UHGV virus genome: UHGV-0183032
DNA: 16,673 nt
Strand: one strand, 5' to 3'
From: a virus
Shown piece by piece: positions 8,119 through 14,905 of the stretch. The position numbers and the translations under genes were made by a program. The notes under the pieces are model-generated. The model was not told the DNA's origin and made no database searches. It saw only the letters and a list, made by a program, of their open reading frames with translations. Numbering within the stretch: position 1 is the stretch's first letter; each line of letters opens with the position of its first letter.

Positions 8119-8130
8119 AGATTTTCCTCC

Positions 8131-8160
8131 AACAAAGCAAAAACCCGGCGCGGGGCCGGG
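8131..8160 (-). terminator. Intrinsic terminator on the minus strand, directly upstream of the holin RBS (tR'-like)
   Basis: Minus strand reads CCCGGC-cccgc-GCCGGG followed by TTTTTGCTTTGTT: 6-bp GC stem, 5-nt loop, U-tract. About 13 nt separate it from the holin RBS. Confidence 0.6.
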
Positions 8161-8188
8161 TAATTACAATTTCGCATTGTTAGGAAAT

Positions 8189-8217
8189 ATTTTAATCTGT
8201 TTGTTTACGCCCTACAA
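8189..8217 (-). promoter_or_regulatory. Candidate sigma70-type promoter (late promoter P_R'-like) upstream of the terminator
   Basis: Minus strand TTGTAG, 17-nt spacer, TAAAAT; would give a roughly 50-nt leader ending at the hairpin. The -35 element is weak. Confidence 0.3.
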
Positions 8218-8224
8218 ATACGGC

Positions 8225-8401
8225 TTACGGCTTTCTATATATCAGGCCGTTATCAAGCAACATTTGCATATGCCGCCGATCCATGTCGCTTGATTCCCAA
8301 TGTGGATCGTCATCAGGTCTTATCATCACCTTATTACCTTTAAGTAAATAGACGATGTTAAATACCTTATGCAAATAGATACCATCTTCGATCTCGTTCA
8401 T
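8225..8401 (-). CDS. Hypothetical small protein, 58 aa (MNEIEDGIYLHKV...)
   Basis: Found by hand, codons verified. ATG 8401 overlaps the stop of the upstream ORF (ATGA). N-terminus IEDGIY resembles its upstream neighbour. Confidence 0.5.
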   Translation of the reverse strand: MNEIEDGIYLHKVFNIVYLLKGNKVMIRPDDDPHWESSDMDRRHMQMLLDNGLIYRKP

Positions 8402-8577
8402 AGGTCGCTAACCCTCACCAGTTCACCAGCATCAAGAAATATTTTAATTGTTTCTCGCGTCGTCTTAATGATTGGCGCTACCCACTCACCACCGCCAACG
8501 CGGATGCGAATATCATCACCTTCTACGCGGTAAAACAGCCCGTCTACTACTGTTGCGTACACCCCATCTTCAATCAT
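8398..8577 (-). CDS. Hypothetical small protein, 59 aa (MIEDGVYATVVDGLFYRVEGDD...)
   Basis: Found by hand, codons verified. AGGAG 8 nt before ATG 8577, which overlaps the stop of the upstream membrane ORF (ATGA). Confidence 0.55.
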   Translation of the reverse strand: MIEDGVYATVVDGLFYRVEGDDIRIRVGGGEWVAPIIKTTRETIKIFLDAGELVRVSDL

Positions 8578-8771
8578 TTCTTGCGCTCCTTAATAGCTCG
8601 ATTGATCTGCCCTGCCGTAGCGTCGAAGAAAGCGATAAACACAGTCACAGGCCAAAAAGGAATCTCAAGGCCGCCAGGTTCAGCTCCGCTAAACTTAATA
8701 AAACAAGACATCAGGATAGCGCCAGCGATATAAAGCAAAACAATCACAGCTATAAGGCATTCAATCATCAT
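8574..8771 (-). CDS. Small membrane protein, about 65 aa with two predicted TM helices
   Basis: ATG-ATG at 8771/8768 overlaps the stop of the upstream acidic ORF; GAGGG upstream. Helices IECLIAVIVLLYIAGAILMSCF and IPFWPVTVFIAFF. The track's longer form (start 8861) overlaps the upstream gene and is rejected. Confidence 0.55.
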   Translation of the reverse strand: MMIECLIAVIVLLYIAGAILMSCFIKFSGAEPGGLEIPFWPVTVFIAFFDATAGQINRAIKERKK

Positions 8772-9012
8772 CGCCCTCGTCTTCATGTTCAGCCAGGAAA
8801 TCATCAACGGCACGGTAAGTAACTGGAGGGATGTATTCGAAATCATCAGAATCAAGATCAAGCGTCCTGCTGTCGCCGTCGTCGTCCATCGTATTCATCC
8901 CTAACTCACCGAAAGGGCCGTACCCAATGTGGCCCAGGTATTCGCAACCAATCGTAAACCCAGGGTATTCGCCTTTACACCGGATCTTGTAAGGTTTATT
9001 TGATGCGCTCAA
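8761..9012 (-). CDS. Hypothetical protein with extremely acidic C-terminal half
   Basis: 83 aa from a TTG start at 9012 with strong GGAGGGGTGG RBS just upstream; alternative ATG at 8898 gives a 45-aa acidic peptide. C-terminal half is extremely acidic (DDDGDSRTLDLDSDDFEY...AEHEDEGDDD). Confidence 0.5.
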   Translation of the reverse strand: MSASNKPYKIRCKGEYPGFTIGCEYLGHIGYGPFGELGMNTMDDDGDSRTLDLDSDDFEYIPPVTYRAVDDFLAEHEDEGDDD

Positions 9013-9319
9013 TTTCCACCCCTCCGTTTTCGCCTTCAGTCACTTTGTATTCTGCCGCCAGTTCAGCGCCAAGCAATTCCACTTCCATATTAGCGATACC
9101 CTGGAACATCAGATAGGCAAAAACTAGGCTTTTAATTCTATCCGGGTCTTCAAGATGGTCTGCATTAAAAGGCGGTTCCGATACGTGGAAGCATTTAACA
9201 TGCGCATCGTCTTCAGTGGCTACACGGAAACATGCACTAGGTTGCCCGGCAAATTGTCCTAATCTTTCTTCGTTCGGTAAAGTGCCACGGAAAACTTTAA
9301 CGCTGATAAATTTAGACAT
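8996..9319 (-). CDS. Hypothetical protein, 107 aa
   Basis: ATG start verified; packed between neighbours in the island. Confidence 0.6.
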   Translation of the reverse strand: MSKFISVKVFRGTLPNEERLGQFAGQPSACFRVATEDDAHVKCFHVSEPPFNADHLEDPDRIKSLVFAYLMFQGIANMEVELLGAELAAEYKVTEGENGGVEIERIK

Positions 9320-9580: not shown

Positions 9581-9880
9581 TTAAAACTCCGCACCAGGTA
9601 AGCTACGCGCTTTGTTTACCGTATCGTGCTTTAACAATAAACCAGCGTGATAATTCATAATCCCCATATTACCTACTGGTATTTCATCATTTTCTGCCTT
9701 TATTATTAACAACTGGTTTTTAGTGAAGATCCTGTCTCCATCAGTGATATATAACCAGTCGCCGCGCTTACCAACAACAACATGAGATCTGCCTAAGCTG
9801 TCTTTAAATTCATAATTACAGAAAACATCATCGTTAGGAACTTCAACAAAACAGCAAGCAATAAATTTAGCGCTTTTCAT
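9581..9880 (-). CDS. Hypothetical protein, 99 aa, possible distant member of the tandem small-protein family
   Basis: Start chosen at ATG 9880 (AAGGG 8 nt upstream); the track's ATG at 9910 lies inside a GC hairpin. Motif GDWLYITDGDRIF resembles the ITDDxGxLW motif of the 10.4-11.4 kb paralogs. Confidence 0.55.
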   Translation of the reverse strand: MKSAKFIACCFVEVPNDDVFCNYEFKDSLGRSHVVVGKRGDWLYITDGDRIFTKNQLLIIKAENDEIPVGNMGIMNYHAGLLLKHDTVNKARSLPGAEF

Positions 9881-9902
9881 GATTACACCCTTCTGATTTG
9901 AT

Positions 9903-9918
9903 GGGGCCATCCGGCCCC
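9903..9918. repeat. Perfect GC-rich hairpin (GGGGCC-atcc-GGCCCC) in a 43-bp intergenic gap
   Basis: 6-bp all-GC stem with 4-nt loop. A U-rich run follows on the plus strand (GTGTTTTAT), not the minus strand. Confidence 0.5.
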
Positions 9919-9923
9919 GTGTT

Positions 9924-10064
9924 TTATGCTTCTTCGTCTCCTTTAAACCCTAAGCACTCCGCGTACTCGTCAATGCTTAATGCTTCTTCACCTTGTGCCA
10001 GTAATTCAAAGTATCTTGCGTACAGTTCGAAAACCCAGGCCGGATATTTAGCGTTAGCGTTCAT
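9924..10064 (-). CDS. Hypothetical small protein, 46 aa (MNANAKYPAWVFELYARYFELLAQGEEALSIDEYAECLGFKGDEEA)
   Basis: Found by hand; GGGGG 6 nt before ATG 10064; fills the gap between neighbouring genes. Confidence 0.5.
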   Translation of the reverse strand: MNANAKYPAWVFELYARYFELLAQGEEALSIDEYAECLGFKGDEEA

Positions 10065-10074
10065 GGTTTCCCCC

Positions 10075-10353
10075 TTATGCCATACGTGCGAATTCAAGTG
10101 ATTTGCATTCGTAGTCTTCCTCTGCCTGTTCGATGACTGCCATCATCATTTCGTTTGCGTTGTTGAATGCGTTGCTTTGTGCGAACTTGTCGGCTCCACC
10201 TTCTTCTTCGAACTCCGCGTTGTTTGCTGCAATGTAGTGATATTCGATGTTGTTCAGGTAAGGGCTTGCAGCGTGTGCTGGGTCTTCTTTCTCCACCATC
10301 TCCCAAAATGCGTTTAAGCGAGATTCGACTTCTTTGTTAATCCAGCGTTTCAT
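10075..10353 (-). CDS. Hypothetical acidic protein, 92 aa; first gene after the predicted 10.4 kb promoter
   Basis: ATG 10353 with GGAGGG about 9 nt upstream; acidic composition (EFEEEGGAD, EQAEEDYE). Confidence 0.65.
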   Translation of the reverse strand: MKRWINKEVESRLNAFWEMVEKEDPAHAASPYLNNIEYHYIAANNAEFEEEGGADKFAQSNAFNNANEMMMAVIEQAEEDYECKSLEFARMA

Positions 10354-13990: not shown

Positions 13991-14177
13991 CGTCACCACG
14001 CTTGTAAATTTTTACAGGCTTAATAGGGATGGCGGGCAATTCGCCTTCATTTAACGCGCTTGCCATACCCAATATTAAGCGTGCTTCAGCACCAGTGACC
14101 TTCTTACACCATGCGCCGCCTGTTTTATCTTCGAATAAGATAACGGCAAACTGATCGTTTATTTCCAGCTTATCCAT
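13977..14177 (-). CDS. Hypothetical protein, 66 aa
   Basis: ATG 14177 lies 1 nt from the stop of the Q-like gene. Confidence 0.6.
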   Translation of the reverse strand: MDKLEINDQFAVILFEDKTGGAWCKKVTGAEARLILGMASALNEGELPAIPIKPVKIYKRGDDDEA

Positions 14178-14905
14178 TATTCACCCCGTGTCACTCGTTT
14201 GATTTCGCTTTCCGCGCGGGCCTCTTCTTTGAATAGCTCCGCTATGGCGTCTTCATAGAAAACCCGGTATTTCTTCCACCATGTTGATCGGCTTACCGGA
14301 AAAACAAGCTGATTAACCGCCTGCCGGACGAGATCTACCGGGAAACGCGAGTACCCACGCCCGCCGCAATGCTGGCACGTTTTGAATACTGGCATTTCCG
14401 CCGCTTCGCTGGCTGCTTTATCCGGTACTTCGCCACGGCCCTTACACCGCTGGCAATGGTTTTTAACGTAGCCTTTGCCGCCGCACCGTGCGCAAATTGT
14501 TGATGTGTATTTGCAATATGGATTTGGTAAATGCCCGTGACCGCCGCACTTAGGGCAAACTTTTTCGGTCGCTGCACTCTGGCAGTAATCCCGAAACGCG
14601 AAAACGGAAACAAGAATAATAAGATCATTGCGTTGTGCCTCGTTTAACTCCATCACGTATTCGTAATCTTTCGCCATAGCCCTTAAACGCTCTGTAAGCA
14701 AAACTACGGCCCTGTGTTTTTCGGCTTGTGATAGTTCCATCTTCCCTAAAAAAGCGCTATATCCAAGCTCTACGCGCGATTGCGCCATACCCGCAGCGGT
14801 TAGCGCATCCGTCGTATTAAGAGCGTCCGGGGACGTGCCCCGGCTTTCGTCAGATAATCGCGGTGATTTAGGAAAGTGGAATTTTAGAATGGATTCTAAA
14901 TTCAT
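14177..14905 (-). CDS. Putative late-gene antitermination protein Q-like, with four DnaJ-type CxxCxGxG zinc-finger repeats
   Basis: 242 aa with CPKCGGHG, CARCGGKG, CQRCKGRG and CQHCGGRG. Sits after the nin/RusA module, where lambdoid phages carry Q. Family assignment is from memory of Q-type proteins of enterobacterial prophages. Confidence 0.5.
   Translation of the reverse strand: MNLESILKFHFPKSPRLSDESRGTSPDALNTTDALTAAGMAQSRVELGYSAFLGKMELSQAEKHRAVVLLTERLRAMAKDYEYVMELNEAQRNDLIILVSVFAFRDYCQSAATEKVCPKCGGHGHLPNPYCKYTSTICARCGGKGYVKNHCQRCKGRGEVPDKAASEAAEMPVFKTCQHCGGRGYSRFPVDLVRQAVNQLVFPVSRSTWWKKYRVFYEDAIAELFKEEARAESEIKRVTRGE

What the first reader, a model, noticed from the sequence alone, without database searches (positions are those of the whole stretch)
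8761..9012. Strongly acidic small protein with a non-ATG start: candidate DNA mimic
The C-terminal half is dominated by Asp/Glu (DDDGDSRTLDLDSDDFEY...AEHEDEGDDD). Highly acidic small phage proteins often mimic DNA to block restriction or other nucleic-acid-binding defences. The likely start is TTG behind a very strong RBS (GGAGGGGTGG).
Basis: inference. Interest (0 to 1): 0.45.

Follow-up and report, generated by a model that had tools for sequence, protein, structure and literature searches.

The report
Small acidic SH3-like phage accessory protein
This is a real 83-residue, very acidic protein of a temperate E. coli phage; it is predicted to fold as a small SH3-like barrel with an acidic helix and tail, its function is unknown, and the idea that it mimics DNA is plausible but not shown.

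Summary
Window 9012..8761 (minus strand) encodes an 83-aa protein with 21 Asp/Glu, net charge -15 and pI 4.05. It is the most acidic of the window's 34 genes.

The TTG start behind GGAGG is well supported. The part upstream of the internal ATG evolves as coding sequence (dN/dS about 0.10). Its residues 9-58 are 49% identical (tblastn E 6e-7) to 56-58 aa proteins of T1-like phages. RefSeq's 45-aa models are therefore truncated.

The window is a prophage or phage of the mEpimmI group. The gene is an accessory gene in a run of about 25 unknown small ORFs between the Q-like antiterminator and the lysis genes.

AlphaFold2 (pLDDT 86) gives a five-stranded SH3-like barrel, an amphipathic acidic helix and a floppy poly-Asp/Glu tail. 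Many acidic residues are conserved parts of the fold.

No sequence or fold match to any known DNA mimic or anti-restriction family was found. The nearest working precedent is TifA, an acidic, partly SH3-like inhibitor of type IV restriction enzymes, but it is not detectably homologous.

The DNA-mimic reading rests on composition alone. Interest is modest.

The parts
8761..9012 (-). Coding sequence of the 83-aa acidic protein (TTG start 9012-9010, TGA stop 8763-8761)
   Evidence: ORF list and translation. PHROG 25234 full-length match, E 1e-55. dN/dS 0.10 and 0.20. 59 homologous clusters.
9016..9025 (-). Shine-Dalgarno region GGAGGGGTGG. GGAGG ends 8 nt upstream of the TTG and lies inside the 3' end of the upstream gene.
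   Evidence: Sequence. A GGAG/GGGGG element is kept at 8-10 nt in 9 related sequences.
8830..8994 (-). Residues 7-61: predicted five-stranded SH3-like beta-barrel core, carrying the family signature C-x-GEY-x-GFT-x-G-x-EY ... DDDGD-x-R ... DF
8872..8886 (-). Residues 43-47, DDDGD: acidic turn between predicted strands 3 and 4, conserved across the whole family
   Evidence: Alignments. Secondary structure.
8785..8817 (-). Residues 66-76 (YRAVDDFLAEH): predicted amphipathic helix with an acidic face. It is present only in the mEpimmI-type subfamily.
   Evidence: AF2 helix 66-76. It is absent from the 52-58 aa homologues.
8764..8784 (-). Residues 77-83 (EDEGDDD): low-confidence, probably disordered poly-Asp/Glu tail. 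Its length and sequence vary, but it is always acidic.
   Evidence: pLDDT 74 falling to 48. Tail variants in the alignment.
8896..8898 (-). Internal ATG (Met39), used as the start in RefSeq/PGAP and MagusPhagus annotations (45-46 aa models). This is probably a truncated call.
   Evidence: Annotations set against the coding conservation upstream of it.
8996..9319 (-). Upstream 107-aa gene (phrog_23107, unknown function). Its last 17 nt overlap the target's start, consistent with translational coupling.
8574..8771 (-). Downstream 65-aa gene for a small hydrophobic protein, probably a membrane protein (phrog_10061). Its ATGATG start overlaps the target's last 11 nt.
   Evidence: PGAP model in an identical prophage.
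8872..8880 (-). Approximate mosaic junction (codons 45-47). In some prophages the 5' half is unalignable while the 3' half is about 93% identical.
   Evidence: DNA alignment with L013. Protein alignments.

Best explanation
Shown or well supported: the ORF is a genuine accessory gene of an mEpimmI-group temperate coliphage or prophage. It is translated from the TTG at 9012, coupled to the upstream gene, into an 83-aa soluble protein. The predicted fold is a small SH3-like beta-barrel (residues 7-61) followed by an amphipathic acidic helix (66-76) and a floppy poly-Asp/Glu tail (77-83).

Inferred: it has no catalytic features. I think it most likely acts stoichiometrically as a binder or inhibitor. 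The rigid barrel would give specificity. Its conserved acidic patch (DDDGD turn, D52/D54/D56/D57/E59), acidic helix face and tail would dock onto a basic surface of a host or defence protein, probably a nucleic-acid-binding one, and compete with the nucleic acid. This is electrostatic mimicry in the broad sense, as proposed for TifA. It is not a rigid B-DNA replica of the Ocr/ArdA kind.

Also inferred: it is expressed as a delayed-early gene, because it lies downstream of the Q-like gene but upstream of what looks like the late promoter-terminator unit in front of the holin.
For: The gene is real and its start is the TTG:
- PHROG 25234 full-length match.
- dN/dS 0.10 (N part) and 0.20 (C part); 26 of 42 variable sites in the N part are third codon positions; TTG plus a Shine-Dalgarno element is kept in 9 of 10 sequences.

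Fold:
- AF2 pLDDT 86, pTM 0.71, five strands plus a helix.
- BFVD best hit is the LL5 58-aa homologue, TM 0.82 on the target.

Acidity is conserved by position across temperate and virulent phage homologues (D43, D45, G46, D47, R49, D57). The 58-aa Tlsvirus version is also acidic: by my count from its sequence, 13 D/E against 4 K/R.

No enzyme or known domain was found.

It is an accessory gene:
- Present in 24 of 5,426 complete E. coli genomes.
- Not detected in mEp021; in mEp013 only 106 bases at one end of the 1-kb query matched, outside the gene.
- It lies in a mosaic run of unknown small ORFs.

Precedent: TifA is 21% acidic, has an SH3-like N-domain and binds and inhibits type IV restriction enzymes (PMC11322646).

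Expression timing:
- A conserved block with a -10-like TAAAAT and a strong terminator sits just before the holin gene.
- A nutR2 site lies upstream of this region in mEp021 (PMC11893012).
Against: - There is no direct functional evidence of any kind.
- Composition is a weak predictor; many small acidic phage proteins do other things.
- There is no detectable homology to TifA (hhalign probability 0.3%) or to any anti-defence family.
- The AF2 model rests on a shallow alignment (39 sequences at 74-96% identity). A mosaic variant modelled with 13 sequences gave pLDDT 49.
- The charge geometry could not be measured.
- The expression-timing argument is based on consensus-like motifs only.
Confidence: 0.4

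Rival explanations
1. Strict DNA mimic and anti-restriction protein. A rigid array of carboxylates imitates the phosphate backbone of B-DNA and blocks type I restriction-modification enzymes, BREX or similar, as Ocr and ArdA do.
For: It is small, has pI 4.05, 25% D/E and net charge -15. The acidic positions are conserved. Known DNA mimics are extremely divergent in sequence and structure, so lack of homology is not decisive (PMC3902945).
Against: - No Pfam hit, so none to Ocr or ArdA, and no NCBIfam hit.
- The listed fold matches are SH3 and Tudor domains; no known mimic appears among them.
- Seven of the 21 acidic residues lie in or next to a low-confidence tail.
- The gene is about 25 genes downstream of the early region, after the Q-like gene. 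Ocr is the first gene expressed after entry (established knowledge).
- These phages already carry DNA methyltransferases (PMC11893012).
Confidence: 0.12
2. Protein-protein adaptor or regulator unrelated to nucleic-acid mimicry. The SH3-like barrel binds a peptide or a partner enzyme. One candidate is an RNA-repair or polynucleotide-kinase-linked function, as suggested by the position of its homologues in T1-like phages. The acidic tail would tune solubility or affinity.
For: - SH3-like folds are generic interaction modules.
- The core-only homologues in Tlsvirus and related phages lie immediately after the polynucleotide kinase/phosphatase gene, with a 4-nt overlap.
- Conserved aromatic residues (Y16, F19, Y25, Y31, F34, F58, Y60) could form a binding groove.
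Against: No polynucleotide kinase lies near the gene in the mEpimmI phages. Adjacency in a phage early region is weak evidence. This reading does not explain the strict conservation of the acidic positions.
Confidence: 0.2
3. The true product is only the 45-aa C-terminal acidic peptide, starting at Met39 as in RefSeq. The upstream 38 codons would be untranslated or only occasionally translated.
For: PGAP and Pharokka chose this start in several genomes. A weak GGTGAG lies 6 nt before the ATG. Met39 is nearly invariant in the subfamily.
Against: - The upstream part has dN/dS 0.10, with variation mainly at third codon positions.
- It is part of the predicted fold at pLDDT above 90.
- It aligns with independent homologues that start with ATG at the equivalent of residue 9.
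- PHROG 25234 is 83 positions long.
- PGAP itself aa in other genomes.
Confidence: 0.05
4. Decaying or neutral passenger ORF with no function of its own, kept by hitch-hiking in a mosaic region.
For: Deletion fusions and truncated forms exist (P0043, P0045, P0046, P0050; an apparently frame-shifted N-terminus in L008). The gene is present in only 0.4% of complete E. coli genomes.
Against: Purifying selection acts over the whole length. The gene is conserved between temperate and virulent phage lineages.
Confidence: 0.05

Closest known systems
56-58 aa hypothetical proteins of T1-like Tlsvirus phages (for example bas08_0073 of phage DanielBernoulli/Bas08, and the LL5 protein A0A2Z4Q2J7)
   Same: True homologues. 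They are 49% identical to residues 9-58 (tblastn E 6e-7). They share the signature C-x-GEY-x-GFT-x-G-x-Y ... DDDGD-x-R ... DF, give the best BFVD fold match and are also acidic.
   Different: They lack the C-terminal helix and poly-Asp/Glu tail. They occur in virulent phages, directly after the polynucleotide kinase/phosphatase gene. They are equally uncharacterised.
TifA (Orf65 of Enterococcus phage phi47), inhibitor of type IV restriction enzymes (PMC11322646)
   Same: A small phage accessory protein with about 21% acidic residues (25% here) and an N-terminal domain resembling SH3. It acts by direct binding, probably to electropositive DNA-binding regions.
   Different: It has 135 aa in two domains and comes from a Gram-positive phage. 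There is no detectable homology (hhalign probability 0.3%). Its function was shown experimentally; here nothing has been tested.
Ocr (T7 gp0.3) and ArdA, the classical DNA-mimic anti-restriction proteins
   Same: Small, pI about 4, a quarter or more of the residues Asp/Glu, encoded by mobile elements.
   Different: Ocr is an all-helical dimer that copies bent B-DNA and is expressed first after entry. ArdA is a three-domain elongated dimer (both established knowledge). There is no sequence match. The fold here is a beta-barrel, and the gene lies far from the early promoters.
Gp54 of phage Bas11 (Pfam PF25180), a trigger of the CapRelSJ46 defence protein (PMC11578894)
   Different: No member of the family matches PF25180, whereas a real Gp54 homologue does. 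Gp54 is a six-stranded barrel without an acidic helix or tail.
Acidic helices and tails that imitate single-stranded DNA: the C-terminal helix of DinI, and the C-terminal tails of SSB, T7 gp2.5 and T4 gp32 (established knowledge, recalled and not tested)
   Same: A short acidic amphipathic helix and a disordered Asp/Glu tail at the C-terminus. The tail's charge is conserved but its sequence is not.
   Different: Different folds. There is no DinI Pfam match. The SSB-type tip motif (DDDIPF ending in a free Phe) is not present at the C-terminus here.

Membership tests
PHROG 25234 (unknown function) | Full-length match to the family profile | tested here: met
   E 1.1e-55, residues 1-83 on profile positions 1-83 of 83.
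SH3-like small beta-barrel fold | Five-stranded barrel that superposes on SH3 domains | tested here: met
Ocr (T7 gp0.3) family | Sequence match to the Pfam Ocr model | tested here: not met
   No Pfam family at E up to 1 for this protein, or up to 10 for 14 family members.
Ocr (T7 gp0.3) family | All-helical dimer whose carboxylates superpose on B-DNA phosphates | tested here: not met
ArdA family | Sequence match to the Pfam ArdA model, or the three-domain elongated fold | tested here: not met
DNA mimic proteins (functional class) | High density of Asp/Glu and low pI in a small protein | tested here: met
   25% D/E, net charge -15, pI 4.05. It is an outlier within the window.
DNA mimic proteins (functional class) | Negative charges fixed on a rigid surface with DNA-like spacing | not testable with these tools
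Secondary structure places the charges on a turn, a loop, one helix face and a low-confidence tail.
DNA mimic proteins (functional class) | Competes with DNA for the binding site of a DNA-binding protein | not testable with these tools
   This needs binding or competition assays.
TifA family | Detectable homology to phi47 Orf65 | tested here: not met
   hhalign of family alignment A3 against the 135-aa protein I identified as Orf65 (L32, 21.5% acidic): probability 0.3%, E 0.21.
Gp54 (PF25180, phage antiviral trigger protein) | Match to the Pfam model | tested here: not met
   No hit. The positive control L015:1957-2112 matches at E 1.2e-14.
Known anti-phage defence proteins (PADLOC) | Match to any PADLOC model | tested here: not met

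The most novel reading that the evidence does not exclude
This family of SH3-like acidic mini-proteins is shared by temperate mEpimmI prophages and virulent T1-like phages. It could be a new class of anti-defence inhibitor that presents a nucleic-acid-like acidic surface on an SH3 scaffold. The 3' half of the gene (last two strands, acidic helix and tail) would then be exchanged as a recombination cassette between divergent alleles in an arms race with the target.
Probability: 0.2. Interest if true: 0.6.

Novelty: new member of a known kind. Interest (0 to 1): 0.3.

Why it matters
If the protein does inhibit a DNA- or RNA-binding defence, it would add an SH3-based scaffold to the short list of charge-mimic inhibitors. 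It would also give a function to a family found in both gut prophages and T1-like phages from collections used in defence research.

Practically, the analysis corrects a recurrent annotation error. The 45-aa RefSeq models lack over half of the fold's residues. It also gives a well-defined 9-kDa target for NMR and interaction screens.

As it stands, this is one of many uncharacterised small acidic phage accessory proteins, and the DNA-mimic label is a guess from composition.

Tried and rejected
- Sequence search of PDB chains with two family profiles found nothing.
- Pfam, NCBIfam and PADLOC gave no hits for the target or its neighbours.
- Rfam and a tRNA scan of the window found nothing.
- The afdb50 fold library was not available.
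- AF2 of the mosaic variant P0056 with 13 sequences gave pLDDT 49. It neither confirms nor denies that the divergent N-halves share the fold.
- Paralogy with the two downstream phrog_15318 genes is not supported (BLASTP E 0.5). I had suspected it because natural fusions join them to the target.
- Homology to TifA is not supported. Membership of the Gp54 family is not supported.
- A second profile search of 5.8 billion proteins found only small hypothetical proteins, with no domain fusions and no informative names. The exhaustive representative search found 16 hits.
- A literature search for the protein accessions and PHROG id found nothing.
- Rejected by inspection: a DxDxDG calcium-binding loop, because the first position is T/V/I and not conserved.
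- Rejected by inspection: an SSB-tip mimic, because the IPP motif is internal rather than at the C-terminus.
- Rejected by inspection: a zinc site, because only one Cys is conserved.
- Rejected by inspection: a signal peptide or transmembrane segment, because there is no hydrophobic stretch.
- The plus-strand ORFs 8472-8822 and 8831-8992 were rejected as genes. The substitution pattern fits the minus-strand frame, and all 34 genes I called in the window are on the minus strand.

Full report
**What is there.** On the minus strand an ORF runs from TTG (9012-9010) to TGA (8763-8761) and encodes 83 residues.
- GGAGGGGTGG lies at 9025-9016, so GGAGG ends 8 nt before the TTG.
- The protein has 21 Asp/Glu and 6 Lys/Arg, net charge about -15 and pI 4.05.
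- Residues 42-83 carry 18 of the acidic residues, and residues 1-41 are about neutral.
- It is the most acidic of the 34 genes I called in the window (z = -2.9).
- No stop-free stretch of 60 or more codons in any of the six frames is as acidic overall, and no 42-residue window exceeds its 18 D/E.

**Where the window comes from.** The region is 84-88% identical to Escherichia phages MagusPhagus, mEp554, mEp010 and mEp044.
- The gene itself is 100% identical to prophage copies in E. coli GN04592, MS 21-1 and CB7286. It occurs in 24 of 5,426 complete E. coli genomes.
- These are the Nus-dependent, non-lambdoid temperate phages called mEpimmI (PMC11893012).
- All genes in the window are on the minus strand. 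The order is NinG, RusA, a Q-like antiterminator (14177-14905; phrog_127, and PF03589 in a relative), about 25 small ORFs, then holin, endolysin, spanin, terminase and portal.
- All neighbouring small ORFs with a PHROG match belong to families of unknown function, and four have no match.
- The gene is accessory. It was not detected in mEp021, and in mEp013 only 106 bases at one end of the query matched, outside the gene. The local gene content differs from phage to phage.

**Is it a gene, and where does it start?** It matches PHROG 25234 over its full length (E 1e-55) and has 59 homologous clusters, all from E. coli phages or prophages. Annotators disagree on the start: PGAP and Pharokka-46 aa from the internal ATG (Met39) in several genomes, PGAP aa in others, and mEp554 and mEp044 are annotated at 59 aa. 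Four observations favour the long form.
- In ten sequences, codons 8-41, upstream of that ATG, have dN/dS 0.10, and 26 of 42 variable sites are third codon positions. Codons 42-75 have dN/dS 0.20.
- The TTG, with a GGAG/GGGGG element 8-10 nt upstream, is kept in nine of the ten. The tenth has an ATG four codons upstream, and another variant starts MTLSAS.
- The N-terminal part is needed for the predicted fold.
- Independent 56-58 aa homologues in T1-like phages start with ATG at the equivalent of residue 9.

The start overlaps the upstream 107-aa gene by 17 nt. The end overlaps the ATGATG start of a small downstream gene for a hydrophobic, probably membrane, protein by 11 nt, which suggests translational coupling. 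Occasional internal initiation at Met39 cannot be excluded, because a weak GGTGAG lies 6 nt upstream of it.

**Structure.** AlphaFold2 with 39 homologues gives mean pLDDT 86 and pTM 0.71.
- Strands are predicted at 7-12, 24-31, 37-42, 48-51 and 58-61, a helix at 66-76, and a low-confidence tail follows.
- Foldseek against the PDB finds nothing significant, only SH3 and Tudor domains.
- In BFVD the best hit is a 58-aa protein of phage LL5 (E 2e-5).

The 'acidic C-terminal half' is therefore not simply a disordered tail.
- DDDGD (43-47) is the turn between strands 3 and 4.
- D52, D54, D56 and D57 flank strand 4 and the following loop.
- D70, D71 and E75, with E77 and D78 just beyond its end, lie on the acidic side of an amphipathic helix.
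- Only about 77-83 is floppy.

One caveat applies. The alignment is shallow, and a mosaic variant (P0056) modelled with 13 sequences gave pLDDT 49, which is uninformative.

**The wider family.** An exhaustive profile search of 1.84 billion representatives found only 16 hits.
- Among them are 52-58 aa proteins that consist of the barrel alone.
- tblastn shows these in Tlsvirus and related T1-like phages (Bas08, LL5, HCF1 and others). They are 49% identical to residues 9-58 (E 6e-7). In the records annotated there, they lie directly after the polynucleotide kinase/phosphatase gene.
- The signature is C-x-GEY-x-GFT-x-G-x-[EM]Y ... DDDGD-x-R-[ST]-[IL]-D ... [DE]DF.
- The acidic positions are conserved across the whole family. 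The helix and tail are an addition in the mEpimmI subfamily.
- A second large profile search found no domain fusions and no informative names.

**Mosaicism.** In some prophages (P0048, P0054, P0056, P0062) the N-half is strongly divergent, though it keeps the signature, while the C-half is nearly identical.
- At the DNA level, identity to L013 begins abruptly at codon 46 and then stays at about 93%.
- Natural deletion fusions also exist. P0045 joins the N-half to the C-terminus of a phrog_15318-type gene like 8225-8401, and P0046 joins it to an unrelated C-terminus. P0050 joins the N-terminus of the upstream 107-aa gene to the acidic half.

**Expression context (inference).** There is no intergenic space after the Q-like gene. 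A block just upstream of the holin gene (8119-8224) is conserved in six phages, even where the upstream gene differs.
- It holds a -10-like TAAAAT, a short leader and a strong GC hairpin with a T-run at 8161-8143.
- This resembles the lambda pR'/tR' unit.
- In mEp021 a nutR2 site lies upstream of this region (PMC11893012).
- The gene is therefore probably delayed-early, read through by N-type antitermination, rather than immediate-early or truly late.

**Function.** Nothing tested here shows a function.
- There is no match in Pfam (so none to Ocr, ArdA or DinI), NCBIfam, PADLOC or PDB sequences.
- No known DNA mimic appears among the listed fold matches.
- DNA mimics are notoriously divergent (PMC3902945), so this does not exclude mimicry. 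It does mean the only positive evidence is composition plus conservation of the acidic positions.

The best working precedent is TifA of Enterococcus phage phi47. It is 21% acidic, has an SH3-like N-domain and binds and inhibits type IV restriction enzymes. I identified its sequence, and it is not detectably homologous to this family.

Gp54 of Bas11 is a structural neighbour of unknown function that triggers CapRelSJ46 (PMC11578894). This family does not match its Pfam model.

My best explanation (confidence 0.4) is a stoichiometric binder. A rigid SH3-like barrel would present a conserved acidic patch, helix face and tail to a basic surface on a host or defence protein, probably a nucleic-acid-binding one. 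The rivals are:
- a strict Ocr-like B-DNA mimic (0.12);
- an adaptor unrelated to mimicry, perhaps linked to the polynucleotide kinase in T1-like phages (0.2);
- a 45-aa product only (0.05);
- a functionless passenger ORF (0.05).

**Verdict.** The DNA-mimic interpretation remains an untested guess. The family is already catalogued as a PHROG of unknown function and as hypothetical proteins. It is a new, uncharacterised member of the familiar class of small acidic phage accessory proteins. Interest 0.3.

Noticed in passing
window 8119-8224 (minus strand): A block conserved in six related phages, even where the upstream gene differs. It holds a -10-like TAAAAT (8189-8194), a short leader, a strong GC hairpin with a T-run (8161-8143), then the holin RBS and ATG. 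It looks like a lambda pR'/tR'-type late promoter-terminator unit, about 6 kb downstream of the Q-like gene.
   Followed up: partly
window 8225-8401 and 8398-8577 (minus strand): Two adjacent small genes are tandem paralogues; both match phrog_15318, of unknown function. The C-terminus of this gene type is found fused to the N-half of the target protein in P0045.
   Followed up: partly
L006 1315-1452, L008, L009, L010, L012; L001 8368-8508: RefSeq/PGAP and Pharokka annotate the target as a 45-46 aa protein from the internal ATG in several genomes, and as 83 aa in others (L007, L011). The short models cut the predicted SH3-like fold in half.
   Followed up: yes
window about 8872-8880; L013 6001-6237: There is a recombination junction inside the gene at about codon 46. 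The 5' half is unalignable and the 3' half is about 93% identical between the window and prophage L013.
   Followed up: partly
L005 2522-2698; L015 6001-6171: The 56-58 aa barrel-only homologues in T1-like (Tlsvirus-type) phages lie immediately after the polynucleotide kinase/phosphatase gene with a 4-nt overlap. A PF25180 Gp54 homologue is encoded elsewhere in the same locus.
   Followed up: partly
window 9901-9920: An 8-bp GC-rich hairpin (GGGGCC...GGCCCC) spans the ATG (9910) of gene 9581-9910. It follows the stop of a small ORF at 9924-10063. On the plus strand it scores as a terminator.
   Followed up: no
window 10075-10353 (minus strand): A second markedly acidic small protein in the same gene run: 92 aa, net charge -11, pI 4.4, phrog_7287, unknown function.
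   Followed up: no
L003 2000-2131: mEp010 carries an extra 43-aa ORF inserted between the acidic gene and the downstream gene for the small hydrophobic protein. The acidic tail is shortened there to ...DDEDD.
   Followed up: no
window 14177-14905 (minus strand): The Q-like antiterminator (phrog_127; PF03589 in relatives) shows weak DnaJ-type CXXCXGXG zinc-finger similarity. Its stop overlaps the start of the next small gene, which leaves no room for a promoter directly after it.
   Followed up: no
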